Shown: positions 24,082-57,301 of the stretch, in pieces
Position numbering within the stretch: position 1 is the first letter of the stretch
Layout: each line of letters starts with the position of its first letter
Assembly (NCBI GenBank): GCA_963796455.1
Contig: CAWCLO010000010.1
Location: 64,001-128,000, forward strand
Direction of reading: 5' to 3'
DNA: 64,000 bases
Origin: Candidatus Sulfomarinibacteraceae bacterium
Lineage (GTDB): Bacteria > Acidobacteriota > Thermoanaerobaculia > Thermoanaerobaculales > Sulfomarinibacteraceae
Notes under the pieces: model-generated
What the model saw: the letters and a program-made list of their open reading frames with translations, nothing else
Database searches by the model: none
Told to the model about the DNA's origin: nothing
Program-made: the position numbers and the translations under genes

Positions 24082-24087
24082 CGATCC

Positions 24088-24194
24088 GAATTCGGAGTTC
24101 GGAGTTCGGGATTCGGGGTTTCGCGCACCCGACCAAAATAATCCCAACGATCCGGGATGGAAACTCCACACTCAGAATTCCGAACTCCGAACTC
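24088..24194. repeat. Inverted pair of heptamer tracts, (TTCGGAG)n ... (CCGAACT)n
   Basis: gaattcggagttcggagttcgggattcgggg ... actccacactcagaattccgaactccgaactc, between convergent genes. Confidence 0.8.
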
Positions 24195-24201
24195 AAAACC
24201 G

Positions 24202-26208: not shown

Positions 26209-26828
26209 ATGAGTTCGGAGTTTGGAGTTCGGAGTTCGGAGTTATTGCACTCTTGGCGACCGTCGGTGTGAGCCGAGGCTCGGTAATTCCTCATTCCGAA
26301 TTTCGAATTCCGAATTCGCGCATCCAACTGGATTGGTGGGATCCCGGATTCCTCGATCCATTTTTCGAGGATCAAGTTGAGCAGCTCGAGTTCTTCATCT
26401 TCGATCCGACCGTCGGTAAAGATCTCGCGGACCCGGGTGACGAATTCTCCCATCATCGGATAAGGATCGTCGACCCGTTCGAGCATGGCGCGAAAGTGAT
26501 CGAGGTTCTTCCGGGTTCGATTCGCCTCTTGCTGAGGGAGGCCCCTCGGGAGGCCGTTGATGACGGCGCTGCGCGAGCGTTCGAAATTCACCCACACCGT
26601 GCTCTTCATCATCGATGTCCCGGCGATGAGGACCCCGATCAAGAGCAACAACCCGATACCACAGCCATAGAGGGGAACCCTGCCGCCGCAACCGGGGTTA
26701 CCGCGCCACGCCTCCTTGCCCGTTGCCGCAGGGGCAAAGACCGGGCCATCCGCCGGTGGTTTCGGCCGGGCCTCTTCGTCGGTTGGTTTTTCTTCAACCA
26801 CCTCGTCATCGATTGGCTGGTCGCTCAT
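26205..26828 (-). CDS. Hypothetical single-TM protein with repeat-derived C-terminal tail
   Basis: Acidic N-terminus (MSDQPIDDE), [18 protein letters not shown] segment. Stop overlaps the uvrB start. Confidence 0.65.
26211..26318. repeat. Heptamer tracts (GAGTTCG)n and (AATTCCG)n
   Basis: gagttcggagtttggagttcggagttcggagtt ... aattcctcattccgaatttcgaattccgaattc. Confidence 0.8.
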
Positions 26829-26995
26829 CCGAACATTGTACCCGGCCCCACCACCCACGCGGATGCTGGATGCTGGTCCCTGAATCACATTGTCCAAGAT
26901 ACGGACTCGGACAGCGTTCAGGGACAGCGACAGGGCACGGCGGACAGGGTCAGCGACTGTAACCAGCGGCAGCCACCAGCGACAGCAATCGGCGC

Positions 26996-27349
26996 TCACT
27001 TCTTCGGATTCAACAGCCGCCAGGTCATGGCACGGACCCGATCGAAGGCGTTCATTGCGTCACGAGCGGTTGTCCGATTGATCGCCCCGGCGTGGACAAG
27101 GAGCTTCAAGTGGCTGTCGACCTCTTTCGCCGAGGCGTAGGCGATTCTCCAGTGGTACGACCGGTCTCTCCCGGATCGGCCGTGCCCTTCAGCAAGGTTT
27201 GCAGGGACTGAACTTGCCGACCGGATCACCTGATCGGCTATGGACTTCAGCGGAGCTGGAACCCTCATCACAAGATTGATCGCGATTCCTGCTGCTTCGA
27301 GGCCTTTCGAGTGGGCAACGAGGTTTGAGTTCGTGGCGGCGTTGGACAT
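26996..27349 (-). CDS. Four-helix-bundle protein (23S rRNA IVP / bAvd-like family)
   Basis: DQVIRSASSVPANLAEGHGR...IAYASAKEV family signature. GGAGG RBS precedes ATG 27349. Confidence 0.92.
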   Translation of the reverse strand: MSNAATNSNLVAHSKGLEAAGIAINLVMRVPAPLKSIADQVIRSASSVPANLAEGHGRSGRDRSYHWRIAYASAKEVDSHLKLLVHAGAINRTTARDAMNAFDRVRAMTWRLLNPKK

Positions 27350-27487
27350 GGTCACCTCCGGGTCGTTCATGCCCATCCCCAAAAGCCGGTGTGGCGGCCG
27401 ATGTCAAGGATGCCCTGCACCCTGCCTGTCCTTGACATCGGCCGCCCACCGGCTACCCCTTCCGTTGAACGACCCGGAGGTGGCCAT
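27348..27487 (-). other. 140-nt nested hairpin leader, copy 1
   Basis: Outer arms 27348-27369 and 27466-27487 are 21/22 complementary. Inner arms agccggtgtggcggccgatgtcaagga / tccttgacatcggccgcccaccggct. Confidence 0.85.
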
Positions 27488-27704
27488 TTCGCCGACTGGA
27501 CTCCTGATCGCTGCCGCCGCCGCTGTCCTCTGTCTCTGTTGCCTGTCGCTGACGCTGGACACTGTCGCTGCCGCTGGCGCTGATCACTGTCCCTGTTTGC
27601 CACAGCGGAACCGCGGTCGCAGGATCTATGCGAAAAGGCCTCTGGCCTCCCAACGAATTACAATTGAATGGAGCGTCTACAATGCCTTGGATCGGAGGAT
27701 CGAT

Positions 27705-28259
27705 ATGAGTGGGTTACTCGAACGCGACCGCGCAGCGCTTTTGGTCATCGACGTCCAGGACCGCATCAATGCCGTCATGGCCGACCAGAGCCACCTCCCC
27801 CGCCTCGAGGTACTGGTGGAGGCCTGCCGCGGGCTCGAAGTCCCGGTCATCGGCAGCGAACAATACCCCCAGGGCCTCGGCCCCACCGTTCCTTCTCTGT
27901 CAGATCTCCTCGGACAGGAGTGGCTTGGCAAGCTGACCTTCTCCTGCGCACGCGATGAAGGACTGCGCGATGCCGTCAAGGCGAGCGGCCGCGCCCAGAT
28001 CATCGTCACCGGAATAGAAACCCACGTCTGCGTCCTCCAGACCGTGATCGATCTTCTTTCCGACGGCTATGAAATCTATGTCCCCCACGACGCCGTCAAC
28101 TCCCGCCGCCCCGCTGACAAGGAGTGGGCCCTCAACCGCATGGCAGCAGCCGGCGCCGTCATCACCTCCACCGAATCCACCCTCTTCGAGATGCTCGAGC
28201 GCTGCGACACCGCCGACTTCAAAACGGTGGCCAAGCTGATCAAAAAGATCCCCGTCTGA
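27705..28259 (+). CDS. Isochorismatase-family (cysteine) hydrolase
   Basis: LLVIDVQDR, SEQYPQGLGPT, KLTFSC, GIETHVCVLQT. GGAGG RBS. Confidence 0.92.
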   Translation: MSGLLERDRAALLVIDVQDRINAVMADQSHLPRLEVLVEACRGLEVPVIGSEQYPQGLGPTVPSLSDLLGQEWLGKLTFSCARDEGLRDAVKASGRAQIIVTGIETHVCVLQTVIDLLSDGYEIYVPHDAVNSRRPADKEWALNRMAAAGAVITSTESTLFEMLERCDTADFKTVAKLIKKIPV

Positions 28260-28457
28260 AGAAACCCTTACCGTTGTGTTATCGGAGCGGCACTTTTTCC
28301 TGAGGATTTCCTGAGTGCAATAACCCAAACTGTTCCTTATGGTTCTGAGACTGCGTCTACCACACATAAGCTCATTTTGGTTGAACGACTTGCCTTCTCA
28401 CCACAATTCCCCCATACTTTTCTCAATTATTCGGCGACACAGGATGGAGGAGAGCTT

Positions 28458-29123
28458 TTGCGGAAGGCGTTTTTCCTCGGTGAGTGGACGGTCGAACCGA
28501 CCCTCGATCGCATCACGCGGGACGGTCAGACCGTCCGGCTGCGTCCCCGGGCAATGGACGTGCTCACCGCCCTCGCGGTGGCCTCAGGTGAACTGGTTTC
28601 GAAGCGAGACCTCATCGACACCGTCTGGCAGACCGAGTTCGTTTCAGAACACGCCCTCACCCAGGTCATCGCCGAGCTCCGGGCGGCGTTCGGCGACAAT
28701 GCCCGCAACCCGAGCTACATCGAAAATATCCCGCGGCGGGGTTATCGATTGATGGCCGCAGTGAACCAGGTCGCCGAAGCGAAGGAATCGCCCCGCGAGG
28801 CCTCGTTGCCTTTCAAGCTCGCGGGCGACGACGGCGACCACCCACTGATTCAGGGGCCCAACATCATCGGCCGCACCACCGACGCCGACATCTGCGTCGA
28901 CAGCACCGAAGTCTCCCGCTGCCACGCCAGGGTCACCGTCCAGGGCACCACCGCCACCATCGAGGATCTCGGCAGTAAAAACGGCACCTACCTCAACGGC
29001 GAACGCCTCGAGCGCCCGGCGCTGCTGACCAACGGCGACGAGATCTGGATCGGCCGCAGCATCGCCCGAATGCGCTTCTTCATCGAGGGCGAACCAACTG
29101 TCACCGAGCACACCGTGTCATGA
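28458..29123 (+). CDS. Transcriptional regulator with CadC/OmpR-type winged helix and FHA domain
   Basis: Winged helix LRAAFGDNARNPSYIENIPRRGYRL. FHA motifs IIGR, VSRCHA, DLGSKNGTYLNG. TTG start after GGAGGAG. Confidence 0.9.
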   Translation: MRKAFFLGEWTVEPTLDRITRDGQTVRLRPRAMDVLTALAVASGELVSKRDLIDTVWQTEFVSEHALTQVIAELRAAFGDNARNPSYIENIPRRGYRLMAAVNQVAEAKESPREASLPFKLAGDDGDHPLIQGPNIIGRTTDADICVDSTEVSRCHARVTVQGTTATIEDLGSKNGTYLNGERLERPALLTNGDEIWIGRSIARMRFFIEGEPTVTEHTVS

Positions 29124-29167
29124 CCTCGCACCGCGGCCCTCCGGACGGACCGCGGCGAGTTTCAACT

Positions 29168-29233
29168 GTGCAGCCGGGACGCCTGGACCACAAAGGCCTC
29201 GAGACAATAATGGCGCGGGCGTCTCGCCCCCAC
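29168..29233. repeat. REP-like family A, copy 1
   Basis: gtgcagccgggacgcctggaccaca...tggcgcgggcgtctcgcccccac. Related to the copies at 46160 and 52346. Confidence 0.7.
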
Positions 29234-29272
29234 ATCCACACAAAACTTCCCAGCCTCGGCGTGTCATCGCGA

Positions 29273-29361
29273 AGCCGCGAAGCGGCGACAGACATTAGCC
29301 TGGGGCGTCAGCCCCAGGTTCCGGGACCAATAAAAGAAACAAGCCCCGGAGGGGCGACAGA
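29273..29361 (+). repeat. REP-like family B, copy 1
   Basis: agccgcgaagcggcgacaga..tagcctggggcgtcagccccagg..agccccggaggggcgacaga. Reverse-complement copy at 57302-57391. Confidence 0.8.
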
Positions 29362-29382
29362 TTCCAGCCCCTGGGTCCCGGC

Positions 29383-32300
29383 ATGACTGACCGCCTCCCG
29401 CCGACCGTCACCGAAGCCGAGAGCGAGACCCTTGATATGCGCGGCGAACGGAAAACATTCCTGGCCGGGGAGATCGTCGGTGATCGATACCAGATCCTCG
29501 CTCTGCTGGGCCGTGGCGGCATGGGTGAGGTGTGGCAGGCCTTCGACCTCAAGCTCCGAGTCGATGTGGCCCTCAAGGCCCTGAGATCAGACATCTTCAA
29601 GAACGAGCGTAGGCGCGAGTCGCTCAGGCAGGAAGTTCGCTCGGCTCGAGATGTCGTCTCCCCCAATGTCTGCCGTCTCTACGATCTCCACGAAATGGAG
29701 GGCCTCGAGCTGGTGTCCATGGAGTTCGTGGACGGACAAACCCTTCTCGATGTGATGTGGGAACGGGCGCCATTGGATCTCCAGGAAGCCCAGGACATCG
29801 CCTCGCAATTCCTCGCGGGGCTTGAGGCCATTCACCATATCGGGCTCGTTCACAGAGACATCAAACCCGAAAACATCATGCTGACCCGGGCGGGTCGGGT
29901 GGTCGTCATGGACTTTGGCATCGCCCGAGAGGAGGCGGAAGGCTCGGGTACCGTCTCAGGAACTGCGGCTTACATGGCCCCAGAGCAAGCGGCCGGTCAG
30001 GCAGTCGACGCGCGCGCCGACATTTACTCAGCGGGCGTCGTGTTGGCCGAAATGGTCAACCCGGAGGGCCTCAAGAACCGCGAAAGCCGCGAGAGTGTCT
30101 GGGAGGCTGTCCGAGCCGAACCGGCCAAGATCCCTGATTCGCCCTGGGCCACCGTCATCACCAAGGCGGTGGCCAAGGACCGTGATCACCGATTCGACTC
30201 TGCTGCCGACCTGACTCGCGCCCTCGAAGACGTCACGCTCCGCGTCATCGGAGCCGACAACCTCCACCCCTACCCTGGCCTCGCCGCCTTCACCGAGGAC
30301 GACGCCGAGTACTTCTTCGGCCGCGAGGCTGAGGTGGAGCAGATGTGGCGCAAGCTCGAGGGGCCGCCGCGGATGCTCGGGCTCGTCGGGCCGTCCGGGG
30401 CAGGAAAGTCCTCGTTCATCGCGGCGGGCCTTGCCGCACATGCCCCAACCGCTTGGGAGATCATCCGATCAACTCCCGGAAACGCAGCGATTTCCTCGCT
30501 CGGCGCCGCGGTCGCCCGCGAGACGGCCGGCGACCCCAACGCGGTCGAACTCCTTCCCCGCTTCGGCAAGGCCGACGTGGCGGTCGATCTCATCTCTCGC
30601 TGGGCCGGGAGGAGCTCGCACTCGTTGTTGATCGTCGATCAGTTCGAGGAGCTGTTCACCCAGAACTCCGTGGATGAACAAATCCGTTTTACCGAAATGC
30701 TAAAGCGGTTCGTGCTCGAAGCCGACGTCCACGTGTTGCTGTCGATGCGAGACGATTTTGCAGTCTCCTGCAATAACCACGAGCCCCTTCGGCCAATCTT
30801 CCACGAACTGACCGTGCTCAACTCTCCGGCCGGGGCCAACCTACGTCGCGCATTGGTCAAACCCGCGCTGGCCTGCAGCTATCGCTTCGAGGACGACGAG
30901 TTGGTAGATGAAATGTTGATCGAGGTGGAGGGTGAACGTGGAGCGCTGCCGTTACTGGCCTTCGCCGCGGCACGGCTCTGGGATATGCGGGACCGAAAAA
31001 CCGGACTCCTCACCCGCCAGACCTACCAGGACATCGGTGGCGTCGGCGGCGCACTCGCACAACATGCCGAGGCAACAATCGATCGCATCGGCATCGAACG
31101 CATTCCGATCGTCCGCGAGCTCTTCCGTAACCTCGTCACCGCCGAGGGCACCCGTGCCCTCCGCGAGTGGGACGAGCTGTTGTCGGTGTTCGAAGAAGCT
31201 CAACGCGAGCCAGCTGCTGAAGTCTTGCGCAAGCTTGTCCAGGCTCGCCTTCTGACTTCGTACGAGGTTCGAGAAGACGAGCACGAACCGCGCCGTCGAG
31301 TCGAAATCATTCACGAATCGTTGCTCGCCACCTGGCCTCGCCTGGTCCGCTGGCAAACTCAGGACGCGGATAGCGTTCAACTGAGGGAACAACTCCGCCA
31401 AGCCGCCAAAACATGGAATGAGCAAGGTCGCAGCGACGATACTCTGTGGACCGGTTCGGCCTACCGGGAGTTCGAATCTTGGCGAGAACGATTCACGGGT
31501 GGTCTATCCAAAGCTGAGGAGGCATTTGCGGCAGCCATGAGAGCGCTGGCCGCGCGCCGACGGAACCGAAGACGATTTGCGGTCGCGACGATCATCGTCG
31601 TTCTGCTTGCAGTCCTGTCGGTGGTCGGTATCTCACGCCAGAAAGCGATTGCTGAAGCCCGCCGAGCCGAGGCATCGAAACTCGTGATGCTCGGAAATTC
31701 GGTGCTTGAGGAGGGCCGTACTCAGGCTCTCGCTTACTCGATTGCCGCCCTTGAACACAATGACTCGAAACCTGCGCGTCACCTGGCCACTAAATCCCTC
31801 TGGGCGGGACCACCCGCGACGTTCTTGCCATTTGAACAGGGGGCATGGTCCATCGATTTCGACACGAACGGGGACCGCATGGCCGTGGGGCATTCGACCG
31901 GGTTACTGAGAGTCTATCCCCGCGACGGGGGGCCGGTGATCACGCTCGATGACTTTGAAGGCCAACATGGTTTGCTGCTCCCAGGATTCTCTGCAGACGG
32001 ACAACTTTTTGTCAGCGGGGCCTCTCGGGCGAATGGCGAGATTCGCATTTGGAATACGGACAGCTGGAAGGTAAATAGGATTCTGCAAACTTCTGACCTC
32101 GTCGAGGTGGGCCAAAACGGATCCCTTGCAGCGTTTGGATTGTTTGAGCCCGGTGGCACCTCCCTGCTGTCCATTTCGGCCACGAGATGGACCGCAAACA
32201 CCACAATTCCAGAACGCAATTTTGTCGTGCACCGCTGGCCGCTCAAAGGTAGCGACCCGCAATGGATCGGTTCAGTCGACGTCACCGGGTCCTTGTTTGC

Positions 32301-33774
32301 CGCTACTCGCGGTCGAGATGCGTTTGTATCGGCGCACAGTGCGAATCTGTTCTTTCATCACGTTGGTCAAACCGGTCTCGGAACTCCAAGGCTGATCTTC
32401 AGTCATCCGGACTCCCTCGATATGGTCCGAAGGCCTGGATTCGATCCGTCGGGTGAACGGTTTGCATTGTGTGATCGTGAGGGCCGGCTGTTTGTTTGGG
32501 ATATTGGGGAAACCAACCGCCCTCGCGTTTTTCACGCACCCAGGGGTGATCCCATGAAAACCTCGTTCAGCCCCGATGGCTCGCGGCTCGCGGTCGCCAT
32601 CGATCCGGTTGGTGGGGCGCTCTGGGATCTCGCAGGCCCGGCTGGCGCCCTACCTCTGACCTTCGACGGGCATGCCAGGTATGGGTTGGAATTCTCACCC
32701 GACGGCCAGTGGCTCATGACCGCCATGGGCCCTCGTTGGCAATTGGCAATGTGGCCGGTGACAAACCAGTACTGGAGAATCCTCGACGGGCACGAGGGCG
32801 CAATCTCCGCCATCGAATTTTCGAATGATGGTTCGGTCCTCTATTCCCAGGGGGCTTCAGATGGGAAGGTGCTAGCGTGGCCCCTTTCAGGAATGGATTT
32901 GGAATCTCCCGAGGTCGTGTATCAGGCTGGGCCACATTTCGGAACCGGCCTTGCCATCGATCCCAAGGGGCGTTTCATAATCGTATCGACCGACGAGGTC
33001 GTGCTCAAGGTGTCTCTGGAAGGCGGATCGATCACAGAATACGACGCCGCGTGGAAGACCGCGCTCGACAACACTGGCAGGTATATTGCTGCCCAACTCA
33101 AGGTCTCGCCGACAATCGTCGTAACCGACTTAGAGTCTGAAGAACGATGGGAACTCTCAGGCCCGGGAGAGGGCCACGCTTCAGAACCATACTTTGATCA
33201 GGAGGGAAGGCTCTTGATAACCAGGGGCGGAGTTCTGAGCCGGTGGAATCCGATCGACGAAAGCACAGAGGTTCTCTTGGAGGACGTGCCATGGGGATTC
33301 CCATATCCGGACGGCCGAATAGTAATCCCCGGTGAAGGAAAACGGTGGCTGATTGATTTGGAAACGGGAAAACGGACGGAGTTTCCTCTCAAAGGTACGG
33401 CGGGTGCCTGGAACGTGAACCCCTCGGGGTCCATCGTCGCCAGGGGCGGCAGAGACGGAACGGTATCGGTTTGGTCTTTTGACGATCAAATTCTGCACGT
33501 GCTTCTTGGCCACAACGGCCCTGTCCGCGAACCGCGAATCTCTCCCGATGGGAAATGGATCGCGACTCACGGCGCCGACCACACAATCCGCCTCTGGCCG
33601 ATGCCCGATCTTTCAAATCGGCCGTTTCATGATCTCCCGATTGACGACCTCCTCTCCAGACTGAAGGCACTGACAAATCTCCGCGCCGTGCCAGACGACG
33701 AAGCTGATTTCGGATACACCATCAGTGCCGACTTCGGCACATATAGCGGCTGGGCGGAGGTACCTGAGTGGTAG
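29383..33774 (+). CDS. Ser/Thr kinase - nSTAND1-type NTPase - TM - WD40 beta-propeller protein, paralog 1
   Basis: Kinase motifs GRGGMGEV, VALK, HRDIKPEN, DFG, APE. NTPase motifs PYPGLAAF..FFGRE, GPSGAGKSS, IVDQFEELFT, GALPLL. Hydrophobic helix after an Arg run, then WD40-like repeats. Confidence 0.9.
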   Translation: MTDRLPPTVTEAESETLDMRGERKTFLAGEIVGDRYQILALLGRGGMGEVWQAFDLKLRVDVALKALRSDIFKNERRRESLRQEVRSARDVVSPNVCRLYDLHEMEGLELVSMEFVDGQTLLDVMWERAPLDLQEAQDIASQFLAGLEAIHHIGLVHRDIKPENIMLTRAGRVVVMDFGIAREEAEGSGTVSGTAAYMAPEQAAGQAVDARADIYSAGVVLAEMVNPEGLKNRESRESVWEAVRAEPAKIPDSPWATVITKAVAKDRDHRFDSAADLTRALEDVTLRVIGADNLHPYPGLAAFTEDDAEYFFGREAEVEQMWRKLEGPPRMLGLVGPSGAGKSSFIAAGLAAHAPTAWEIIRSTPGNAAISSLGAAVARETAGDPNAVELLPRFGKADVAVDLISRWAGRSSHSLLIVDQFEELFTQNSVDEQIRFTEMLKRFVLEADVHVLLSMRDDFAVSCNNHEPLRPIFHELTVLNSPAGANLRRALVKPALACSYRFEDDELVDEMLIEVEGERGALPLLAFAAARLWDMRDRKTGLLTRQTYQDIGGVGGALAQHAEATIDRIGIERIPIVRELFRNLVTAEGTRALREWDELLSVFEEAQREPAAEVLRKLVQARLLTSYEVREDEHEPRRRVEIIHESLLATWPRLVRWQTQDADSVQLREQLRQAAKTWNEQGRSDDTLWTGSAYREFESWRERFTGGLSKAEEAFAAAMRALAARRRNRRRFAVATIIVVLLAVLSVVGISRQKAIAEARRAEASKLVMLGNSVLEEGRTQALAYSIAALEHNDSKPARHLATKSLWAGPPATFLPFEQGAWSIDFDTNGDRMAVGHSTGLLRVYPRDGGPVITLDDFEGQHGLLLPGFSADGQLFVSGASRANGEIRIWNTDSWKVNRILQTSDLVEVGQNGSLAAFGLFEPGGTSLLSISATRWTANTTIPERNFVVHRWPLKGSDPQWIGSVDVTGSLFAATRGRDAFVSAHSANLFFHHVGQTGLGTPRLIFSHPDSLDMVRRPGFDPSGERFALCDREGRLFVWDIGETNRPRVFHAPRGDPMKTSFSPDGSRLAVAIDPVGGALWDLAGPAGALPLTFDGHARYGLEFSPDGQWLMTAMGPRWQLAMWPVTNQYWRILDGHEGAISAIEFSNDGSVLYSQGASDGKVLAWPLSGMDLESPEVVYQAGPHFGTGLAIDPKGRFIIVSTDEVVLKVSLEGGSITEYDAAWKTALDNTGRYIAAQLKVSPTIVVTDLESEERWELSGPGEGHASEPYFDQEGRLLITRGGVLSRWNPIDESTEVLLEDVPWGFPYPDGRIVIPGEGKRWLIDLETGKRTEFPLKGTAGAWNVNPSGSIVARGGRDGTVSVWSFDDQILHVLLGHNGPVREPRISPDGKWIATHGADHTIRLWPMPDLSNRPFHDLPIDDLLSRLKALTNLRAVPDDEADFGYTISADFGTYSGWAEVPEW

Positions 33775-36700
33775 ATCGCACTCATCTTCCGACCACCCTC
33801 ACCGAGGCGGAGAGCGAGACCCTCGATCTCCACGACCAGTGGCGGACCTTCACCGCAGGGGAGATTGTCGGTGAGCGATACCAGATTCTCGCTCTACTCG
33901 GTCGTGGTGGCATGGGTGAGGTTTGGCATGCCTTCGATTTGAAGCTGCGGGTCGATGTGGCGCTGAAGGCTCTTCGCTCAGACATCTTCAAAACCGAGCG
34001 TCGACGCGAATCGCTTCGTCAGGAAGTTCGGGCTGCTCGCGAAGTCGTCTCGCCAAATGTATGTCGCGTGTTTGACCTCCACGAGATGGAAGGCCTCGAG
34101 CTGGTCTCCATGGAGTTCGTCGACGGCCAGACCCTGCTTGATGCGATGCGGGACGGAGCGCCATTCGATCTCCAGGAAGCCCAGGACATCGCATCCCAGT
34201 TCCTCGCCGGGCTCGATGCGATTCACCAGATCGGCCTCGTCCACCGCGACATCAAGCCTGAGAACATCATGCTCACCCGCTCAGGGCGGGTGGTGGTCAT
34301 GGACTTCGGCATCGCCAGAGAAGAGGCCGAGGGCTCAGGAACCGTCTCGGGCACCGCCGCCTACATGGCCCCCGAGCAGGCAGCCGGCCAGGCTGTGGAC
34401 GCCCGCGCGGACATCTATTCGGCCGGCGTAGTCCTCGCCGAAGTCGTGAATCCAGACGGCCTCAAGAACCGGGAGAGCCGAGAGAGCGTCTGGGAGGCCG
34501 TCCGGGCCGAACCAGCAAGGATTCCGGACACGCCGTGGTCCGCAGTCATTACTAAAGCCGTGGCAACGGACCGCGACCATCGATTCGACTCGGCGGCCGA
34601 TCTCACCCGCGCCCTCGAGGAGGTCACCCTCCGCGTCGCCGGCGCCGACAACCTCCACCCCTACCCTGGCCTCGCCGCCTTCACCGAGGACGACGCCGAG
34701 TACTTCTTCGGTCGCGAGGCCGAGGTCGAACAGATGTGGCGAAAGCTCGAGGGACCGGCACGCATGCTCGGAATCATGGGGCCCTCGGGGGCCGGGAAAT
34801 CCTCGTTCATCGCGGCGGGACTCATCTCACATGCGCCAAACACATGGGAGATTCTTCCAGCAACTCCCGGAAACGCAGTTCTTGCCTCGTTCGCCTCGGT
34901 GGTCGCACGCGAAATGGCTGGAGACCCTGACGCCGTCGAGCTTCTCCTTCGCATCGACGAGCCCGATGTGGCGGTCGAGCTCATCTCCCGGTGGGCGGGA
35001 AGGAGCCCTCGCTCGCTGATCGTGGTCGACCAATTCGAGGAGCTCTTCACTCAGAACTCGAGTGAAGATCAACGGCGGTTTGCGGACCTGCTTCGCCGGT
35101 TTGTCATCGAAGCCGATGTCCACGTTCTGCTGTCGATGCGCGACGATTTCGCCGCGGCCTGCAACATTCACGAATCGCTGCGTCCAATCTTCCAGGACCT
35201 CACTGTCCTCGACCCACCAACCGGGCCGAATCTTCGCCGCGCAATCGTCTGGCCGGCGCAGAAGTGCGGCTACCGCTTTGAAGACGACGCATTGGTGGAG
35301 GAGGTTCTGGCCGAGGTGGAGGAAGAGCGGGGGGCCCTGCCATTGATGGCATTCGCCGCGGCCCGTGCCTGGGAGAAACGGGATCGAGAAACGGGCCTGC
35401 TGACTCGCGAGGCTTACCAAGCCATCGGTGGCGTCGGCGGCGCATTGGCCCAACATGCCGAGGCGACTGTGGACCGCATCGGCACCCAACACATCGCCGT
35501 CGTCCGCGAACTCTTCCGAAACCTCGTCACCGCCGAGGGCACCCGCGCCGTTCGCGAGTGGAACGAGTTGTTGTCGGTGTTCGTCGATTCGCAAGACGAA
35601 TCGCCCGAGGAGGTCCTTCGCGCGCTCATCGACGCTCGCCTTCTGACCTCATACGAAGTGCGCGAGGACGAGCACGAACCCACTCGCCGCGTGGAGATCA
35701 TACACGAGAGCCTGCTTGCCAACTGGCCGCGCCTCGTTCGGTGGCAAACCCAGGATCAGGAAGGCGCACAAATCCGCGACGAACTCCGGCAAAGCGCACG
35801 GTCGTGGGACGAGCACGGTCGCCACGACGACCGTCTCTGGACCGGCACCGCCTTCCGGGAGTTCGAGCTTTGGAGGGAGCGATATCCAGGAGGGTTGACC
35901 GAAACTGAAGAATCCTTCGCGAGGGCCACCACCTCCTTCTCGGCCCGCCGTCGTCGGCGCCGCCGAATTCTCGGCGCGGCGGGGGTCGCGATTTTGCTTG
36001 CGGTGCTCGCGATCGTCACTGGTTTTTGGCGGAAAAGCGAAAGACAAACACGAATTGCTGAAGCCCAGAGGCTGCTCGCCCTCGGCCAACTCGAAATGGA
36101 GAGATTCCCCACAGCGGCCCTGGCCTGGGCCAAGGCGAGCCTCAATATCGCCGACACGAAGGAGGGTCGGCTCTTCGCGCTCGAAGCGATCTCAAGGGGT
36201 CCACTGGCGAGAATCAGACAGTTCGATGTGAACAACGAGGGGGTGGCCCACCACGGGGTTTTCAGCCCGAATGGCGAGTGGATTGCGTATATGGGGTACG
36301 ACCTCCTCAAGGTGGATCATCGGTCAGGGGGCGCGATACGAGTCATCGATTCGTTCCCGAACGATCCGAACGCAGCTTTCAGGGATTTCTATCCGGTGTT
36401 TGATCGGGAGTCGTTACGGCTCTCCGTCTGGCGGTACCAATCCGAAAGCCGGTCCGCGGTCGTTCGCACCTTTGGGGTTCCTGACTTTGAGAAGGTCGTT
36501 CAGATCGAGAGACCGCTGGGCAAGGGCTTCTTCGAATACTGGCCGACATCCGCCGGTGTCTATCACCTGAATCGAAATCAAGGTGGGGTCGAAGTCTGGC
36601 ACCTCCCCCACGGTGGCGAATGGCGGCTATTCGACACGGTCGACGGTTTTGACCGCTGGTTTTTTGATCACCTCGGGGAGTGGGCGGTCTTCCGGCGAGG

Positions 36701-38213
36701 TCAAGAATTCTTTCTCCAATCTTTGGTCAGCTCTGGCGTTGAGCCACGTGTCATCGCCCGATTTGCCACCGAGGACTGGCGTATCAGGGTGGATCCCAAT
36801 TGCAAATGGATTGCCACCGCTCAACCCCAACAGGAACAGGTGTCGGTTTGGCCTGCTGGGTTGGATGTTTCCGAACCAGTCCGTCGTATCGACACAGATG
36901 GCCTGCCCATTTCATCCGCCCTCAATTTCCAGATCGATCAGCAGGGACGGCGCATTGCGGTTGCAGGAAACGTTGAAGGCGTCCGGATGGCAAAGATATG
37001 GGACTTATCGCAACCGGACGGGGCCGAACCTCTGGTTCTCCGCAATCCCGATGCCGAGTACATGAATGGGGTGAGCTTCGAACCGTCGGGTCGGTGGGCG
37101 GTAACAGGCAATACAGTCTGGGCTTCATTCTGGCCGATACCGGAGAATCCCCCGTTGGTCTTCTCGGGTGCCAGTTCCCGACTTCTGAACCTGGCTTTCA
37201 CGGTCGACGGCGCTTCGGTGTTCGTGCCTCTTTTTGATGGCGGTCCGCACTTGTTACACCTGACCCGTGGTAGCGACAATATTGAGCGCCTTGACCTGCC
37301 TGTTGTTTCCCTTGGAGGCATCGCCATGGATCCCGCGGGTCAATTCGTTCTCGCTGCCAAGAACCCCACCGGCGTACTTCTGCTCCCGTTCGATGGATCC
37401 GAGCACCGGGTCCTCGAAGGATTCGATGATGTGTGGGCAACGGCTCTCGCGTATGACGCCGACAGAGCCCTGGTTGCTGCTGCACCCTACCGTGGATCGA
37501 AGGACCAGAAGATCATTCGGGTAGTCAACCTCGATGGCGGGTCTTTAACAACTCTGGGACCGGCCGAAGATGCAGGGGATGGGTTCATTGGTGGCTTCAG
37601 CGAGCTCGAGTTTCTTCCGGACGGCAGGCTGCTTTCGGGCGGGAAGGGAGGAATCCGCCGTTGGAACCTGGAGAACGGCGAATGCGAGCTCTTGTACCCC
37701 GGCATGATCTTCCGGATGGACGTGAGTCCTGATGGGAGATTCGCCGTCGCCGCGCTGTTTGAGGATATGGGCGGGTTCGGGCCGGCCTTGCGGGTTGACC
37801 TGGCGACCGGCCAAACCCGAATCATGCCCGAATACGGGCACCAGAACAGATCCTGCGCAATCGGCCCGGACTCCGACGTGGTTGCCATGTCCGACAATGA
37901 CGGGAGGATTCGGATCGGGAGGTTGTCCGGCGGCGAGCCCCACACGCTTTTTGGTCACTCGAATAGCCCCGAAGGACTGTCGTTCTCGCCTGATGGTCGT
38001 TTATTGGCTTCCGGTGATGTGGGCGGCGCCGTGCGCATCTGGTCGGTGCCCGATGTTACAGGTCCGCCCCCGCAAGAGATGTCCCTGGGAGAGTTCCGAG
38101 CCAAGCTCGAATCATTCACCAATCTGCGGGTCGTGCCCAATGAAACTTCATCGACCGGCTGGCTGTTGGAGGTCGGCCCCTTCCAGGGTTGGGCGAATGT
38201 ACCGGAGTGGTGA
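33768..38213 (+). CDS. Ser/Thr kinase - nSTAND1-type NTPase - TM - WD40 protein, paralog 2
   Basis: Same motifs as paralog 1. Start overlaps the paralog 1 stop. Confidence 0.9.
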   Translation: MVDRTHLPTTLTEAESETLDLHDQWRTFTAGEIVGERYQILALLGRGGMGEVWHAFDLKLRVDVALKALRSDIFKTERRRESLRQEVRAAREVVSPNVCRVFDLHEMEGLELVSMEFVDGQTLLDAMRDGAPFDLQEAQDIASQFLAGLDAIHQIGLVHRDIKPENIMLTRSGRVVVMDFGIAREEAEGSGTVSGTAAYMAPEQAAGQAVDARADIYSAGVVLAEVVNPDGLKNRESRESVWEAVRAEPARIPDTPWSAVITKAVATDRDHRFDSAADLTRALEEVTLRVAGADNLHPYPGLAAFTEDDAEYFFGREAEVEQMWRKLEGPARMLGIMGPSGAGKSSFIAAGLISHAPNTWEILPATPGNAVLASFASVVAREMAGDPDAVELLLRIDEPDVAVELISRWAGRSPRSLIVVDQFEELFTQNSSEDQRRFADLLRRFVIEADVHVLLSMRDDFAAACNIHESLRPIFQDLTVLDPPTGPNLRRAIVWPAQKCGYRFEDDALVEEVLAEVEEERGALPLMAFAAARAWEKRDRETGLLTREAYQAIGGVGGALAQHAEATVDRIGTQHIAVVRELFRNLVTAEGTRAVREWNELLSVFVDSQDESPEEVLRALIDARLLTSYEVREDEHEPTRRVEIIHESLLANWPRLVRWQTQDQEGAQIRDELRQSARSWDEHGRHDDRLWTGTAFREFELWRERYPGGLTETEESFARATTSFSARRRRRRRILGAAGVAILLAVLAIVTGFWRKSERQTRIAEAQRLLALGQLEMERFPTAALAWAKASLNIADTKEGRLFALEAISRGPLARIRQFDVNNEGVAHHGVFSPNGEWIAYMGYDLLKVDHRSGGAIRVIDSFPNDPNAAFRDFYPVFDRESLRLSVWRYQSESRSAVVRTFGVPDFEKVVQIERPLGKGFFEYWPTSAGVYHLNRNQGGVEVWHLPHGGEWRLFDTVDGFDRWFFDHLGEWAVFRRGQEFFLQSLVSSGVEPRVIARFATEDWRIRVDPNCKWIATAQPQQEQVSVWPAGLDVSEPVRRIDTDGLPISSALNFQIDQQGRRIAVAGNVEGVRMAKIWDLSQPDGAEPLVLRNPDAEYMNGVSFEPSGRWAVTGNTVWASFWPIPENPPLVFSGASSRLLNLAFTVDGASVFVPLFDGGPHLLHLTRGSDNIERLDLPVVSLGGIAMDPAGQFVLAAKNPTGVLLLPFDGSEHRVLEGFDDVWATALAYDADRALVAAAPYRGSKDQKIIRVVNLDGGSLTTLGPAEDAGDGFIGGFSELEFLPDGRLLSGGKGGIRRWNLENGECELLYPGMIFRMDVSPDGRFAVAALFEDMGGFGPALRVDLATGQTRIMPEYGHQNRSCAIGPDSDVVAMSDNDGRIRIGRLSGGEPHTLFGHSNSPEGLSFSPDGRLLASGDVGGAVRIWSVPDVTGPPPQEMSLGEFRAKLESFTNLRVVPNETSSTGWLLEVGPFQGWANVPEW

Positions 38214-38462
38214 AGGCTGGTCGCACTGGTCTTCTTCAGGAGTTCACAAAACCCGTCCATAAGAGTATCGAACATATCCCTGACCGTTCCCAGATGACTT
38301 CGGTCACAACCGCATCGATCTTGTTGAATAGATCTTTCACTTCGTGTGGGTGATAAGGAAACGGAGTCGCAATATTTGTTGCTTATTTGCCTTTCAGGTC
38401 TCATATTGAGAAACAAGAAAACCTAGCAAAACGAATCGGCGCGCTCTTCTATCGGGGGGGTC

Positions 38463-41400
38463 ATGAGATATGCGGTCGTGCTGTTGGTCGTGTCGCTGGT
38501 GATAGTGTCTTCTCTTGCCGCCCAGGAAACAACCGGTGGCTTGCAGGGGGCGGTCGCAGACAAAGTCGGAAACCCGATCACGGGGGCGGTTGTCGAGGCA
38601 AAAGGGCCTTTCGGCACGGTCTCGACGAAATCGAACACCGAAGGCGAATATCGATTTCCCAGGTTGGCGCCGGGCAACTATTTGGTTTCAGCATCCTTCG
38701 AGGGCTATCCGACGGTGGAATCCGATCCAACCCGGATTGTTCTCGGTGAATCGGCGACCGTCGACTTCACACTCCGGCGAGAGTCCTTTTCAGAAGAGAT
38801 TTTCGTCTACTCCGACACGGTGACCATCGACTTCACCGAAAACCAGACGGCCACGAACATTCACCAGTATGAGATCGACTACCTGCCTCGGGGCCGCGAC
38901 TATACCGACGTGGTCACCTTTGCCCCCGGCACGGTCCTCAATCACCAGGGCGGCGGAATAATGATCGACGGGGCCTCGGGCCTCGAAAACCGCTACATCA
39001 TCGACGGCCTCGACACGACTGACCCCGTACAGGGTGACCCGGGCGTTCCCTTGCGTGCCGAATTCATAGAGGAGGTGCAGGTCAAATCGGCGGGCTACAT
39101 GGCCGAGTTTGGGGGTTCCACCGGAGGGGTGATTAATGTGGTCTCGCGCACAGGGAGCAATGAGTTTCACGGCTCGCTCTTTGTGGACATCGAGGAAAAC
39201 TCATGGAACGGTGCAGCGCGACAGGAGATCGAGTTCCATCTCAACGATCCCGGTGCCAGCCTGGTGACCTACGACAAGGATGACGAGGTTCGCTACGATC
39301 CCGGGTTTTCGCTGGGCGGCCCGATTCTACGCGGCCGGTTTTGGTTCTTCGCATCGTATCTGCCCGGTCTTCGGACCACAAAAAGGACGATTAACTGGGT
39401 AGACCATCCCCCCGATGTCTATCGCCAAAACTATCGTTTCGATTATGGCAGTTTCAATCTCACGGCCAACGTATCGAGTGCTCTGCTGATCAAGGCCGGG
39501 CTCAACGTATCACCGAATACCCGCGAGGGATCGCTGCCCAATCGAGACGGTCGTTCCGGTCTCCCGGGCCAGGAAAACTGGGCGCCGATTGGATCGAAAT
39601 ACGATCGAGAGACCTACCATCTCTCGGCCGACTGGGTCGTGAATAACGACCTCGTTCTGAGCGGTCGAGGGGGTCTTTACCACACCAACTACGAAACCAC
39701 CGGCATCGAGTCCTACGATGTCATCCATCAGTACTCTATCTACAGCGTCGCGGGTTTTTGTGATCGCCACCCTGTGGTGCCCTCCGGAGCCTGCAACAAC
39801 CCGGGCTGGTACAGCGACCCACTGCGCACGAAATGGTACCGCGACATCTACGAGCGGAAAGGTGCGGCGCTGGATGGCACCTGGTTCTTCCGTGGCGGCG
39901 GCCAGCACTCGCTCAAGGCCGGATATCAGACAGAGGAGATCTCCAACGACAAAAGGGCCGCGTGGAACGCCGAACGCGTCCTGTATTACTGGGACCGCGC
40001 CTATACAACCACGACCGGTGACAGCGTCCGCGGAGAGTTCGGTGTTTTTCTCCTCAACAATCCGTCGACCCTGGGAGACGTGGCCAGCCGGAATCAGGCG
40101 GCTTTCGTCCAGGATGCCTGGCAGGTGCGATCGAATGTCACACTCAACATCGGGGTTCGAATCGAAAAGGAGGAAATCCCAAACTACGGCGCCACCGGAC
40201 CCGACCCTGCGATCAGCTTCAATTGGGGGGACAAGGTAGCACCGCGTCTGGGATTAGCCTGGGACATCAGAAACGACGCGAAATGGAAGCTCTACGGCAG
40301 TTGGGGCAAGTATTACGATGTGACGAAGTACGCGGTCTCAGGTCTGCTCGGATCCGGGAGGAATGTCGGGTATTACTACACCTTTGATCATCCTGAAATC
40401 TTTCTCAACGAGACTCCGAGCTGCCGGACCGGCAACAACACGATTTTCGAGCGGCCCGACTGCCCCGCGGGCACCTTTATCGAAGCGATTAACTGGTTGC
40501 CAAACTCCGCGGATCCGGAGGTGTGGGAGGAACTCGGATTTCCCCTCATCGAACCCAATCTCAAACCGATGGAGACCTGGGAAGCTCAAATCGGGGTCGA
40601 CCACCAACTGACGATGAACATCCAGATCGGGGCCCGCTTCGTACACAAAGAGATCGTGCGGACGATCGAGGACGTCGGGATTCTCCTGCCCGGTATCGGC
40701 GAGATCTATGTCATCGGAAACCCCGGCGAAGGAATCACGATCGACGTCAGCGACCTGCCCTATGCCAAACCCGTGCGGGAATATGACGCCCTCGAACTCG
40801 TTCTGGACAAGCGTTTTTCCGACAATTGGTCTTTGCGCGCTTATTTCACTTTGAGCCGGTTGTGGGGCAACTACTCGGGCCTCGCCAACTCGGACGAGGT
40901 CAACGTTGTCGGAAACCCTTTGAACCCCATCGGTTCAGGAGGAAGAAGATCACCCAACGTCAGTCGTCTTTATGATCTTCCCGGTTCAATGTACGACCAA
41001 AACGGTGATTTCGTCTACGGACGTTTGGCGACCGACCGCACCCACCAATTAGGGGCCCAGTTCCTCTACAGCATCCCTTTCGGGCTCAACGTCGGCGTCA
41101 ACCAGTACATCGGCAGCGGCACCCTCATTTCCACCAAAGGATCCATCCTCGGCGGCGATTTCTACCCCTACGGTCGCGGGGACCTGGGTGAAACGCCGTG
41201 GATAACTCAGACCGATCTCTCGCTCTTCTACACCCTGACTCTTGGACGGGGGCTGAACTTCACCGTCGGACTGACGGTTCTGAATCTGTTCGATGAGGAC
41301 ACGCCAACAAGGAAGTGGCCGCACGTGCAAACACAAAATCTTGGAGTCACGAACGAAGACTTTCTCACCGGGTTCAATTACGCCGAGGAGTTGGCGGCGC

Positions 41401-41492
41401 TTGGCCCGGCGGCCCTCGACTCGCGCTTCGGCATGTGGGATACCTTTCAACTCCCGCGGGAACTCCGCCTGACACTCAAGTTCGAGTTTTAG
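38463..41492 (+). CDS. TonB-dependent receptor (Oar-like, N-terminal carboxypeptidase-regulatory-like domain)
   Basis: Signal peptide, YRFPRLAPGNY, plug ENRYIIDG..EEVQVKSAGYMAEFGGSTGGVINVV, APRLGLAWD, terminal F. Confidence 0.92.
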   Translation: MRYAVVLLVVSLVIVSSLAAQETTGGLQGAVADKVGNPITGAVVEAKGPFGTVSTKSNTEGEYRFPRLAPGNYLVSASFEGYPTVESDPTRIVLGESATVDFTLRRESFSEEIFVYSDTVTIDFTENQTATNIHQYEIDYLPRGRDYTDVVTFAPGTVLNHQGGGIMIDGASGLENRYIIDGLDTTDPVQGDPGVPLRAEFIEEVQVKSAGYMAEFGGSTGGVINVVSRTGSNEFHGSLFVDIEENSWNGAARQEIEFHLNDPGASLVTYDKDDEVRYDPGFSLGGPILRGRFWFFASYLPGLRTTKRTINWVDHPPDVYRQNYRFDYGSFNLTANVSSALLIKAGLNVSPNTREGSLPNRDGRSGLPGQENWAPIGSKYDRETYHLSADWVVNNDLVLSGRGGLYHTNYETTGIESYDVIHQYSIYSVAGFCDRHPVVPSGACNNPGWYSDPLRTKWYRDIYERKGAALDGTWFFRGGGQHSLKAGYQTEEISNDKRAAWNAERVLYYWDRAYTTTTGDSVRGEFGVFLLNNPSTLGDVASRNQAAFVQDAWQVRSNVTLNIGVRIEKEEIPNYGATGPDPAISFNWGDKVAPRLGLAWDIRNDAKWKLYGSWGKYYDVTKYAVSGLLGSGRNVGYYYTFDHPEIFLNETPSCRTGNNTIFERPDCPAGTFIEAINWLPNSADPEVWEELGFPLIEPNLKPMETWEAQIGVDHQLTMNIQIGARFVHKEIVRTIEDVGILLPGIGEIYVIGNPGEGITIDVSDLPYAKPVREYDALELVLDKRFSDNWSLRAYFTLSRLWGNYSGLANSDEVNVVGNPLNPIGSGGRRSPNVSRLYDLPGSMYDQNGDFVYGRLATDRTHQLGAQFLYSIPFGLNVGVNQYIGSGTLISTKGSILGGDFYPYGRGDLGETPWITQTDLSLFYTLTLGRGLNFTVGLTVLNLFDEDTPTRKWPHVQTQNLGVTNEDFLTGFNYAEELAALGPAALDSRFGMWDTFQLPRELRLTLKFEF

Positions 41493-41548
41493 GAAGTGGA
41501 GGCAGCAATCGAGAAACCGGACCCGAATCGCCGGCGGCATTCCGATGA

Positions 41549-50637: not shown

Positions 50638-50742
50638 GTGTTGAGTTTTGAGTTATGAGTTTTGATTTGCACCCACCCTCATGCAAGGCTGGAAGCGCCC
50701 AATGGCCGATACCGAACTCCGAATTCCGAATTCCGAATTCGG
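50637..50742. repeat. Heptamer tracts (TGAGTTT)n ... (CCGAATT)n
   Basis: gagtgttgagttttgagttatgagttttga ... ccgaactccgaattccgaattccgaattcgg. Confidence 0.75.
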
Positions 50743-56357: not shown

Positions 56358-56360
56358 AGA

Positions 56361-56395
56361 TCGGAATTCGGAGTTCGGAATCGGAATTCGGAGTT
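56361..56395 (+). repeat. Heptamer tract (TTCGGAR)n
   Basis: tcggaattcggagttcggaatcggaattcggagtt, right after the pckA stop. Confidence 0.75.
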
Positions 56396-56648
56396 GTCAT
56401 CGCAGGGCTCTTTCTGATTTCATATCGCAATACTGCCCTTGACTTCGGGTGCCCAGGTCAGTGCTGTCCAAAACAAATCGTGATCTGAAGTTGCCCGGTT
56501 GACAACACGAAATTTACGTGTTGGATTTCGGCATTTCCGCTTCGTGGTTGCCCCGTGCCCGGGTCCGAATTGCAGCGGCACCGACAGTGTTCAGCGTCAG
56601 CGACAGAGGACAGCGGCGGCGGCAGCGATCAGGAGTCCAGTCGGCGAA

Positions 56649-56788
56649 ATGGCCACCTCCGGGTCGTTCAAAGGAAGGGGTAGCCGGTGGGCGGCCGATG
56701 TCAAGGACAGGCAGGGTGCAGGGCATCCTTGACATCGGCCACCACACCGGCTTGTGGGTAGGGGCATGAACGACCCGGAGGTGACCAT
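56649..56788 (+). other. 140-nt nested hairpin leader, copy 2
   Basis: 56649-56670 pairs with 56767-56788 and 56682-56707 pairs with 56726-56752. The 3' arm contains the RBS and the start of the ATG. Confidence 0.85.
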
Positions 56789-57140
56789 GTCCAACGCCGC
56801 CACGAACACCAACCTCGTTGCCCACTCGAAAGCACTCGAAGCCGCAGGAATCGCGATCAATCTCGTGATGAGGGTTCCAGCTCCTCTGAAGTCGATAGCC
56901 GATCAGGTGATCCGTTCGGCAAGTTCAGTCCCTGCGAACCTGGCAGAAGGCCACGGCCGTTTCGGTAGAGACCGGTTGAACCACTGGAGAATCGCGTACG
57001 CCTCGGCGAAGGAGGTCGACAGCCACTTGGAGCTCCTCGCCCACGCCGGGGCGATCAGCCAGAATGGAGCCGGTGAAGCAATGAAGGCCTTCGATCAGGT
57101 CCGTGCGATGACATGGCGTTTACTCAACCCAAAGTCTTGA
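56787..57140 (+). CDS. Four-helix-bundle protein (23S rRNA IVP / bAvd-like family)
   Basis: Same signature as 26996-27349. 16 of 117 residues differ by manual count. Confidence 0.92.
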   Translation: MSNAATNTNLVAHSKALEAAGIAINLVMRVPAPLKSIADQVIRSASSVPANLAEGHGRFGRDRLNHWRIAYASAKEVDSHLELLAHAGAISQNGAGEAMKAFDQVRAMTWRLLNPKS

Positions 57141-57301
57141 TTTCAGGGCTCCATGCCAGTCAAACGTGACGCTGACTCCTGTTCGCTGACGCTGAACACT
57201 GGTCGCCGTTCCCTGTCGCTGACGCTGATCGCGGCCACCGTCCCTGATCGCTGTCTGAGACTCTATCTTGGACAAGAGTGTGCTCAGGTCCAGGATTCGA
57301 T

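What the first reader, a model, noticed from the sequence alone, without database searches (positions are those of the whole stretch)
27348..27487. 140-nt nested hairpin leader, more conserved than its gene, that buries the RBS and start codon
Seen: an outer 22-bp stem (one mismatch), an inner ~26-bp stem and G-rich loops. The GGAGG and AUG lie in the 3' outer arm. The two copies differ at 5 of about 185 leader positions by manual count, four of them in loops. Inference: a selected structure acting as a translational lock, an RNase III substrate, an ncRNA partner of the protein, or a DNA hairpin used in mobilisation. It matches no RNA family I recognise.
Basis: partly seen in the sequence, partly recalled or inferred. 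Interest (0 to 1): 0.75.

Follow-up and report, generated by a model that had tools for sequence, protein, structure and literature searches.

The report
Fold-back DNA promoter on jumping cassette
This hairpin is the conserved leader of a small gene carried by a transposase-less jumping cassette present in about 65 copies per genome, and it is likely a promoter that would switch the gene on only when the DNA is single-stranded, a trick so far described mainly from plasmids.

Summary
The hairpin is real (z about -11.5) and covaries (28 of 56 pairs), but it is probably a DNA structure, not an mRNA lock. It leads a four-helix-bundle gene (PF05635/TIGR02436) in a cassette with IS4-type ends and 9-bp target duplications, present in 65 full and 169 shorter copies in this genome. 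Folded as the gene's template strand, it copies an RNA polymerase open complex: a paired -35 hexamer, a 16-17-bp spacer of variable but compensated sequence, paired T-12, a bubble from A-11, a pyrimidine-purine start at an upstream in-frame ATG, and a 22-bp downstream duplex. T-7, usual in host promoters (63 of 87), is mostly missing (12 of 139), which would silence it in duplex DNA. Wobble pairs favour that strand. The same motif occurs in relaxase-integrase elements. No transcript data were obtained; promoter activity, the source of single-stranded DNA and the protein's role are untested. This scan reached the same idea on other genomes and noted this cassette elsewhere in this genome; I found it in no paper searched.

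The parts
27432..27437 (+). -35 hexamer (sigma70 consensus) on the non-template half of the folded + strand; paired in the fold
   Evidence: exact consensus in 60 of 63 own copies; 0 two-sided changes in alignment columns 66-72 against 3-24 per column in the spacer
27438..27453 (+). 16-bp spacer helix (16-17 in relatives), sequence variable, pairing kept
27454..27465 (+). T-12 (paired), then the unpaired non-template side of the bubble starting at A-11; position -7 (27459) is not T
27370..27383 (+). template side of the bubble; 27370 is the last unpaired base and templates the A of the upstream ATG, the inferred start site
27348..27369 (+). gene-proximal outer arm (carries the GGAGG and the second ATG on the - strand); template half of the 22-bp downstream duplex
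27466..27487 (+). distal outer arm; non-template half of the downstream duplex
27384..27410 (+). template half of the inner stem; read on the - strand it holds a twin -35 hexamer (27407-27402) with no usable -10 (A-11 in 1% of relatives)
27411..27428 (+). apex; 18 nt here, one or two small hairpins of variable length in relatives
26996..27370 (-). four-helix-bundle gene (PF05635 23S_rRNA_IVP, TIGR02436); 117 aa from ATG 27349, 124 aa from ATG 27370
27505..27598 (-). upstream arm of short degenerate repeats, hypervariable between copies; the left terminal repeat is missing from this copy (ends read by eye)
26905..26992 (-). downstream arm of repeats, complementary in type to the upstream arm (ends read by eye)
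26886..26904 (-). degenerate right terminal inverted repeat of the cassette (position read by eye from the ruler)
56459..57280 (+). second, complete cassette (822 bp) with both terminal repeats and a 9-bp target duplication with one mismatch; hairpin 56646-56791, gene 56787-57140

Best explanation
The hairpin is likely a single-stranded-DNA promoter: when the gene's template strand is exposed it is predicted to fold into a ready-melted sigma70 promoter that would start transcription at the upstream ATG, so the four-helix-bundle gene would be on in single-stranded DNA and off in the normal duplex. Shown: the fold, its covariation, its fixed geometry, the cassette and its copy number. Inferred: (1) host RNA polymerase binds the fold, with the distal half supplying -35, T-12 and A-11 and the gene-proximal half serving as template; (2) the transcript starts at 27370 and lacks the distal arm, so its GGAGG is free, and relatives without it use a leaderless start; (3) in duplex DNA neither half is a working promoter (no T-7 on one strand, no A-11 on the other) and read-through RNA folds over the GGAGG, a second lock; (4) the single strand arises during DNA uptake, conjugative transfer or repair, the same RNA may prime second-strand synthesis, and the protein helps the incoming copy persist. 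The cassette itself moves by a cognate IS4-type transposase in trans, without needing the hairpin.
For: Geometry: 159 of 193 gene hits from relatives could be parsed; TA lies 16-17 nt after the -35 hexamer on the template strand in 140 of 159 and the upstream ATG lies 28-31 nt after the twin hexamer in 148 of 159 (29 nt in 82). In DNA folds of 139 leaders T-12 is paired in 85%, A-11 in 4%, and pairing resumes at about +1 to +3; the base before the ATG is a pyrimidine in 137 of 139. A published open-complex scaffold uses a mismatch bubble from -11 to +2 (PMC4593229, passages seen). T-7 is present in 12 of 139 leaders but in 63 of 87 host sites with the same -35 and 17-nt spacing. Sequence is fixed at the -35 pairs while spacer pairs covary. 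Non-Watson-Crick pairs favour G.T on the template strand: 50 against 7 cells over -35 to -23; in the 63 own copies 102 C.A against 6 G.U cells on the mRNA strand. At -35 the twin on the mRNA strand decays in 18 of 159 while the template-strand hexamer keeps its T. Ten of 159 leaders lack the GGAGG and second ATG but keep the upstream ATG. A related motif with T at -7 (3 of 3) sits in TrwC-relaxase/integrase elements of other Acidobacteriota, twice directly after the relaxase stop, and all three in the orientation that makes the relaxase template strand the promoter strand. Private mutations hit stems and 0-fold sites at similar rates (0.15-0.32 per site) while shared variants avoid them; pN/pS is 0.51 for private and 0.09-0.13 for shared changes, so selection acts when copies spread.
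Against: No transcript, start site or in vitro data; no sequencing runs were examined. The conserved geometry is shared by descent, so the counts are not independent, and the parse required the -35 anchor (one search did not). Counted as distinct events the wobble bias is weak (5 vs 11, p = 0.21; 14 vs 21, p = 0.31; 18 vs 36 by genome, p = 0.02). Described Frpo-type promoters rebuild both -35 and -10 boxes in the stem (PMC9849209, 10.1101/2023.02.15.528439, passages), whereas here -10 is reduced to TA in a bubble. The own-genome spacer is 16 nt (61 of 63), one short of optimal. Two of the three relaxase-linked motifs fold with the bubble partly closed and lead to no gene. No TrwC relaxase or VirB4-type gene was found in this 90%-complete genome, no relative on plasmids, and no strand bias relative to replication (38 of 65). 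Arm-to-arm copying occurs (head-to-head duplication in L294, inverted apex in L107) and could create compensatory changes without selection; copies recombine heavily, which blurs the selection argument.
Confidence: 0.65

Rival explanations
1. RNA translational lock: the whole hairpin is transcribed as a 5' leader and keeps the gene untranslated until it is opened by a protein, nuclease or ligand.
For: The GGAGG and second ATG are fully paired and opening a ribosome footprint costs about 30 kcal/mol; 130 of 159 leaders keep both; covariation is strong.
Against: No G.U excess on the mRNA strand; the mRNA strand is the more stable RNA fold in only 28 of 76 leaders; 10 of 159 leaders keep the architecture without GGAGG or second ATG; it does not explain a fixed -35 hexamer, spacer length, TA and start-site spacing; no promoter was found upstream.
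Confidence: 0.15
2. Single-strand origin only: RNA polymerase uses the fold to make a short primer for second-strand synthesis, and gene expression is incidental.
For: Related motifs in relaxase-integrase elements precede no gene; such primer sites are known and Frpo does both jobs (PMC4595007, PMC12672017, passages).
Against: The inferred start coincides with a conserved in-frame ATG followed by a GGAGG and a protein under purifying selection; the cassette has no replication or transfer origin that I could identify.
Confidence: 0.08
3. 6S-like RNA decoy: an RNA from either strand mimics an open promoter and binds sigma70 holoenzyme.
For: Size and bubble-between-two-stems shape resemble 6S RNA (recalled); both strands fold about equally well as RNA.
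Against: No 6S match in Rfam even at E up to 5; exact conservation of the -35 sequence suggests base reading in B-form DNA (inference); no promoter or terminator bounding such an RNA.
Confidence: 0.05
4. Neutral quasi-palindrome kept perfect by template switching and gene conversion among copies.
For: Arm copying and apex inversion are seen (L294, L107); four-gamete incompatibility among coding sites rises from 0.42 to 0.75 with distance.
Against: The internal loop between two perfect stems stays non-complementary in nearly all leaders; shared variants are depleted in stems relative to 4-fold sites; the retained arm decays faster in gene-less copies (0.082 vs 0.032, against 0.116 vs 0.083 in the left end).
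Confidence: 0.04
5. Invertible promoter: recombination between the outer arms flips the inner segment so that the -35/TA promoter faces the gene.
For: A promoter-like unit faces away from the gene between 22-bp inverted repeats.
Against: 0 of 159 relatives and 0 of 63 own copies are in the flipped state; inner-stem pairing would not be needed. Assemblies show only majority states.
Confidence: 0.03

Closest known systems
Frpo/ssi single-stranded-DNA promoters of F, ColIb-P9 and pESBL leading regions (classes 1-3)
   Same: Long fold-back of the template strand that presents sigma70 elements; predicted active in single-stranded and silent in duplex DNA; sits directly before a small gene (PMC9849209, PMC12672017, 10.1101/2023.02.15.528439; passages seen, figures and supplements not seen).
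   Different: Chromosomal, in about 65 dispersed copies of an insertion cassette; about 140 nt; -10 reduced to T-12/A-11 at the edge of a built-in bubble with T-7 mostly absent; drives one PF05635 gene. Sequence similarity to Frpo was not tested.
RNA-polymerase-dependent single-strand origins (sso) of rolling-circle plasmids and ICEs
   Same: Folded single strand recognised as a promoter by host RNA polymerase (PMC4595007, passages); related motifs here lie in relaxase-integrase elements.
   Different: The start faces a conserved protein gene with its own ribosome site; no rolling-circle or transfer origin identified in the cassette.
Mobile insertion cassettes (MIC231) and MITEs
   Same: Terminal inverted repeats and target duplication of an IS, passenger gene instead of a transposase, moved in trans (PMC3129680, passages).
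   Different: The passenger module (repeat arms, hairpin, gene) is found between at least two unrelated kinds of ends in one genus and is under purifying selection.
ORF-bearing 23S rRNA intervening sequences (S23p of Coxiella, Leptospira; PF05635) and DGR Avd
   Same: Same protein family (2gsc at E = 0.003); gene enclosed by complementary arms; Avd resemblance per PMC10053308 (passage).
   Different: Not in rRNA; in the Coxiella element the region before the start codon is variable and the ribosome site is cut off by RNase III (PMC4990558, passages), whereas here the leader is the most conserved part; no reverse transcriptase was looked for or seen beside the two window copies.

Membership tests
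Frpo/ssi ssDNA promoters | [quoted passage not shown] | tested here: met
   DNA fold z = -11.95; covariation
Frpo/ssi ssDNA promoters | -35 box in duplex at correct spacing from -10 and start | tested here: met
Frpo/ssi ssDNA promoters | Canonical -10 box rebuilt in the stem | tested here: not met
   only T-12/A-11; T-7 in 12 of 139; -11 to +1 unpaired
Frpo/ssi ssDNA promoters | [quoted passage not shown] | tested here: not met
   dispersed chromosomal cassettes; no plasmid hit; related motif in relaxase elements
Frpo/ssi ssDNA promoters | Transcription from ssDNA but not dsDNA | not testable with these tools
   needs in vitro transcription or 5'-end mapping
Frpo/ssi ssDNA promoters | Sequence similarity to classes 1-3 | not tested
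   reference sequences not in hand
Mobile insertion cassette (IS4-type, DUF4372 transposase) | Terminal inverted repeats shared with an autonomous IS | tested here: met
   same ends bound about 1.37-kb elements L057, L073, L084; DUF4372 + DDE_Tnp_1 in L073 and L084; similar ends in congener G017, L450
Mobile insertion cassette (IS4-type, DUF4372 transposase) | Target-site duplication | tested here: met
   9 bp exact in 20 of 46 end pairs, at most one mismatch in 29 of 46
Mobile insertion cassette (IS4-type, DUF4372 transposase) | Cognate transposase in the same genome | tested here: not met
   not found in G000, 90.5% complete; present in 6 of 77 family genomes
Mobile insertion cassette (IS4-type, DUF4372 transposase) | Empty site in a close relative | not tested
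   no filled/empty comparison was run
23S rRNA intervening sequence | Inserted in an rRNA gene | tested here: not met
   both window copies are intergenic between protein genes and Rfam finds no rRNA in the window; other copies' contexts were read only as flanks
23S rRNA intervening sequence | Encodes a PF05635 protein | tested here: met
   55.8 bits, cut-off 33.8
Rfam RNA family (incl. 6S) | Covariance-model match above gathering score | tested here: not met

The most novel reading that the evidence does not exclude
A selfish chromosomal gene family that senses its own single-stranded state: a pre-melted, T-7-less fold-back promoter, borrowed from the single-strand origins of mobilisable elements, fires the 23S-IVS/Avd-like protein only when a copy enters a cell or invades as single-stranded DNA, and the protein then promotes that copy's establishment or recombination. 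This would give the first function and expression condition for the large, unexplained PF05635 family and a new class of ssDNA promoter.
Probability: 0.3. Interest if true: 0.9.

Novelty: new variant of a known kind. Interest (0 to 1): 0.72.

Why it matters
Single-stranded-DNA promoters are described from conjugative plasmids and single-strand origins. A compact one that copies the open complex base for base, on a chromosomal cassette in dozens of copies, would extend the principle to transposable elements and give a 140-nt, directly testable ssDNA-state switch. It also offers a testable reason why PF05635 genes are conserved yet seem unexpressed in growing cells (S23p was not detected in vivo; PMC4990558): they may be read only from single-stranded DNA.

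Tried and rejected
Rfam: no family at gathering score; 9 weak hits are generic hairpins. Hairpin as transposition signal: rejected, because 71 gene-less copies lack it (28 with left end, 41 with right end, 13 of 21 with near-exact duplications) and relatives use other ends. Conventional duplex promoter: 0 sites in 26700-27800. Invertible switch: 0 of 159 and 0 of 63 flipped; an earlier attempt at this test parsed only 1 arm and was uninformative. Replication-strand bias: none (38 of 65 full, 86 of 168 shorter). DNA-type GNA triloops at the apex: 8 of 22 loop types, split 4 and 4 between strands, so not used as strand evidence (one search was a failed parse). Covariance model R1: 0 of 150 other phylum genomes, with only 20 candidates scored each. 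Plasmid relatives of the protein: none. Viral contigs: 7 of 124 pattern hits had extended stems and 3 had TA at 16-18 nt; their neighbouring ORFs did not look like this family by eye and were not scanned. One of the four non-G000 pattern hits (L430) lacks the extended stem. The four unrelated PF05635 genes of this genome have repeat arms but no such hairpin. Expression and start site stayed unchecked because no sequencing runs were obtained. The number of distinct spacer sequences was not computed, and some part boundaries are read by eye. No structure or complex prediction was run. Literature: 10 searches found no paper on this cassette or on ssDNA promoters before PF05635 genes; the library lacks most subscription papers, and bioRxiv supplements and all figures were not seen.

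Full report
Observation. The nested hairpin is at the stated place. It folds far better than shuffles as RNA on either strand and as DNA, has a 22-pair outer and a 26-pair inner stem, and matches no Rfam family. The gene behind it (27349-26996, - strand) encodes a four-helix-bundle protein of PF05635/TIGR02436.

The cassette. A search of the whole 5.02-Mb genome gave 234 loci: 65 with a full gene (63 also with a full leader) and 169 shorter ones; 58 of the 65 have an intact frame. Complete copies are about 820-890 bp, with 19-bp terminal inverted repeats and 9-bp target duplications (20 of 46 end pairs exact, 29 within one mismatch). The same ends bound about 1.37-kb autonomous elements in other phyla whose transposase carries DUF4372 and DDE_Tnp_1 (the label IS4-type is recalled and was suggested by an earlier scan note). 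No such transposase was found in this genome, but one with similar ends is in a congener. The flagged copy has lost its left end; the copy at 56459-57280 is complete. Record titles carrying the same ends and the Acido-Lenti-1 RNA in the window point to an Acidobacteriota host. The hairpin-plus-gene core occurs in 18 of 24 congeners by DNA and 22 of 28 family genomes by protein; among the congeners examined only G006 showed these ends, while seven showed a different end motif (ISL3-like by recall and earlier notes). Seventy-one gene-less copies carry a REP-like palindrome in place of hairpin and gene and still have ends and duplications. So the hairpin belongs to the gene, not to transposition.

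Selection. Across 63 copies, diversity is 0.014-0.053 in stems, 0.014 in the apex, 0.11-0.17 in the internal loops, 0.046 at 0-fold and 0.26 at 4-fold sites. Private changes occur at 0.15-0.32 per site in stems, apex and 0-fold sites alike, but shared variants are scarce there; pN/pS is 0.51 for private and 0.09-0.13 for shared changes. Copies decay once inserted, and intact ones found new lineages. Heavy recombination among copies means this cannot be pinned to the transposition step.

Covariation, but not RNA-like. I aligned 71 of 78 parsed leaders (7 near-duplicates dropped) plus the two window copies. With the named structure, 94.6% of cells pair and 28 of 56 pairs show two-sided change, above all 500 shuffles and all slid controls (relatedness inflates this). 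Yet G.U on the mRNA strand is not favoured: 6 against 102 C.A cells in own copies and 19 against 56 in relatives; as distinct events 5 vs 11 and 14 vs 21 (not significant) or 18 vs 36 by genome (p = 0.02). The opposite strand is the more stable fold in 48 of 76 leaders as RNA and 47 of 76 as DNA. C.A on the mRNA strand is G.T on the template strand.

Promoter geometry. The pairs that never covary (columns 66-72) spell the sigma70 -35 consensus on both strands, pointing outward. In 159 parsed leaders (of 193 gene hits with enough flank) the template strand has TA 16-17 nt after its hexamer in 140, and an in-frame ATG lies 28-31 nt after the twin hexamer in 148. Folding the template strand as DNA in 139 leaders puts T-12 in a pair (85%), leaves A-11 open (4% paired), and restores pairing at about +1 to +3; a pyrimidine precedes the ATG in 137. 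In the flagged copy the bubble is 27455-27465 opposite 27370-27383, and the base templating the A of that ATG is the last unpaired one. This is the layout of the scaffold used to crystallise an open complex, with a mismatch bubble from -11 to +2 (PMC4593229, passages). The host uses ordinary promoters, with T-7 at 63 of 87 comparable sites, while the element has it in 12 of 139, and the twin on the mRNA strand has A-11 in 1%; a consensus scan finds no duplex promoter. Ten leaders lack the GGAGG and second ATG but keep the first ATG; 130 keep both. The inference is a promoter complete only in the folded single strand, whose transcript begins at the 3' arm and so escapes the lock.

Outside support. 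A pattern search of 401 phylum genomes hit 3 besides this one. Three of those four loci fold alike and have T at -7; they lie in TrwC-relaxase/integrase elements, two directly after the relaxase stop and one beside a tRNA-Leu gene, where single-strand origins or promoters are expected (PMC4595007, passages). They precede no obvious gene and two have a partly closed bubble. This genome encodes ComEC and DprA (widespread genes, weak evidence) but no TrwC or VirB4-type gene was found, and copies show no replication-strand bias, so the source of the single strand is open.

Against. No expression data; lineage-shared counts; anchors required; arm-to-arm copying seen in L294 and L107; a -10 unlike the rebuilt boxes described for Frpo (PMC9849209, 10.1101/2023.02.15.528439, PMC12672017; passages only). 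The RNA lock remains real for any read-through transcript.

Comparison and novelty. It works like an Frpo/ssi promoter but fails two membership features (rebuilt -10, leading-region location), so it is filed as a variant, not a member. The carrier meets the mobile-insertion-cassette definition (PMC3129680, passages) except that the transposase is not in this assembly. It shares only the protein with 23S rRNA intervening sequences (PMC4990558, PMC10053308, passages). Ten literature searches found no description (listings only unless named above). Earlier notes of this scan described the cassette in this and other genomes and the ssDNA-promoter idea in other genomes; I had the promoter geometry, and those notes are not counted as evidence.

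Verdict. Real, selected, not in Rfam; most likely a fold-back ssDNA promoter (0.65) on a non-autonomous IS4-type cassette; new variant of a known kind; interest 0.72.

Noticed in passing
G000 genome-wide, e.g. C7:103305-103759: Family of 71 gene-less cassettes in which a REP-like palindrome replaces the inner hairpin and gene while the distal outer arm is kept; similar short palindromes lie in the window at 29166, 46158 and 52344.
   Followed up: partly
G000, e.g. C10:438147-438605 and about eight others: Recurrent internal deletion joining the inner stem to about codon 57 of the gene through a short shared sequence.
   Followed up: partly
L294 (G350:C128:10600-12043): Two four-helix-bundle genes head to head around a fully symmetric hairpin in which both halves are of the gene-proximal type.
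   Followed up: no
L443:6946-7014, L444:7610-7677, L445:15411-15479: Candidate single-strand origins or promoters in small TrwC-relaxase/integrase elements of other Acidobacteriota.
   Followed up: partly
L384, L397, L406 (viral contigs): Hairpins with outward-facing -35 hexamers, extended stems and TA at 16-18 nt, not beside this gene family by eye.
   Followed up: partly
window 24083-24195, 26210-26319, 50692-50742, 56358-56398 and cassette flanks: Heptamer arrays between genes; those flanking cassettes match the 9-bp target consensus with a 7-bp period and may arise from repeated insertion and excision.
   Followed up: no
G000 C4:1278094, C1:983149, C9:2726, C10:733004: Four unrelated PF05635 genes, flanked by short-repeat arrays (inverted on the two sides in three of them) but without this hairpin.
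   Followed up: partly
window 29273-29318 and 57346-57391: Two Acido-Lenti-1 RNA matches (RF01687), each next to another palindromic repeat.
   Followed up: no
window 28377-43000: Winged-helix/FHA regulator followed by three tandem paralogous large Ser/Thr kinase-NTPase-WD40 genes.
   Followed up: no
L032-L094 subset, L045, L080, L092: The same terminal repeats bound other gene-less elements of 120-410 bp carrying different palindromes in related and unrelated genomes.
   Followed up: no
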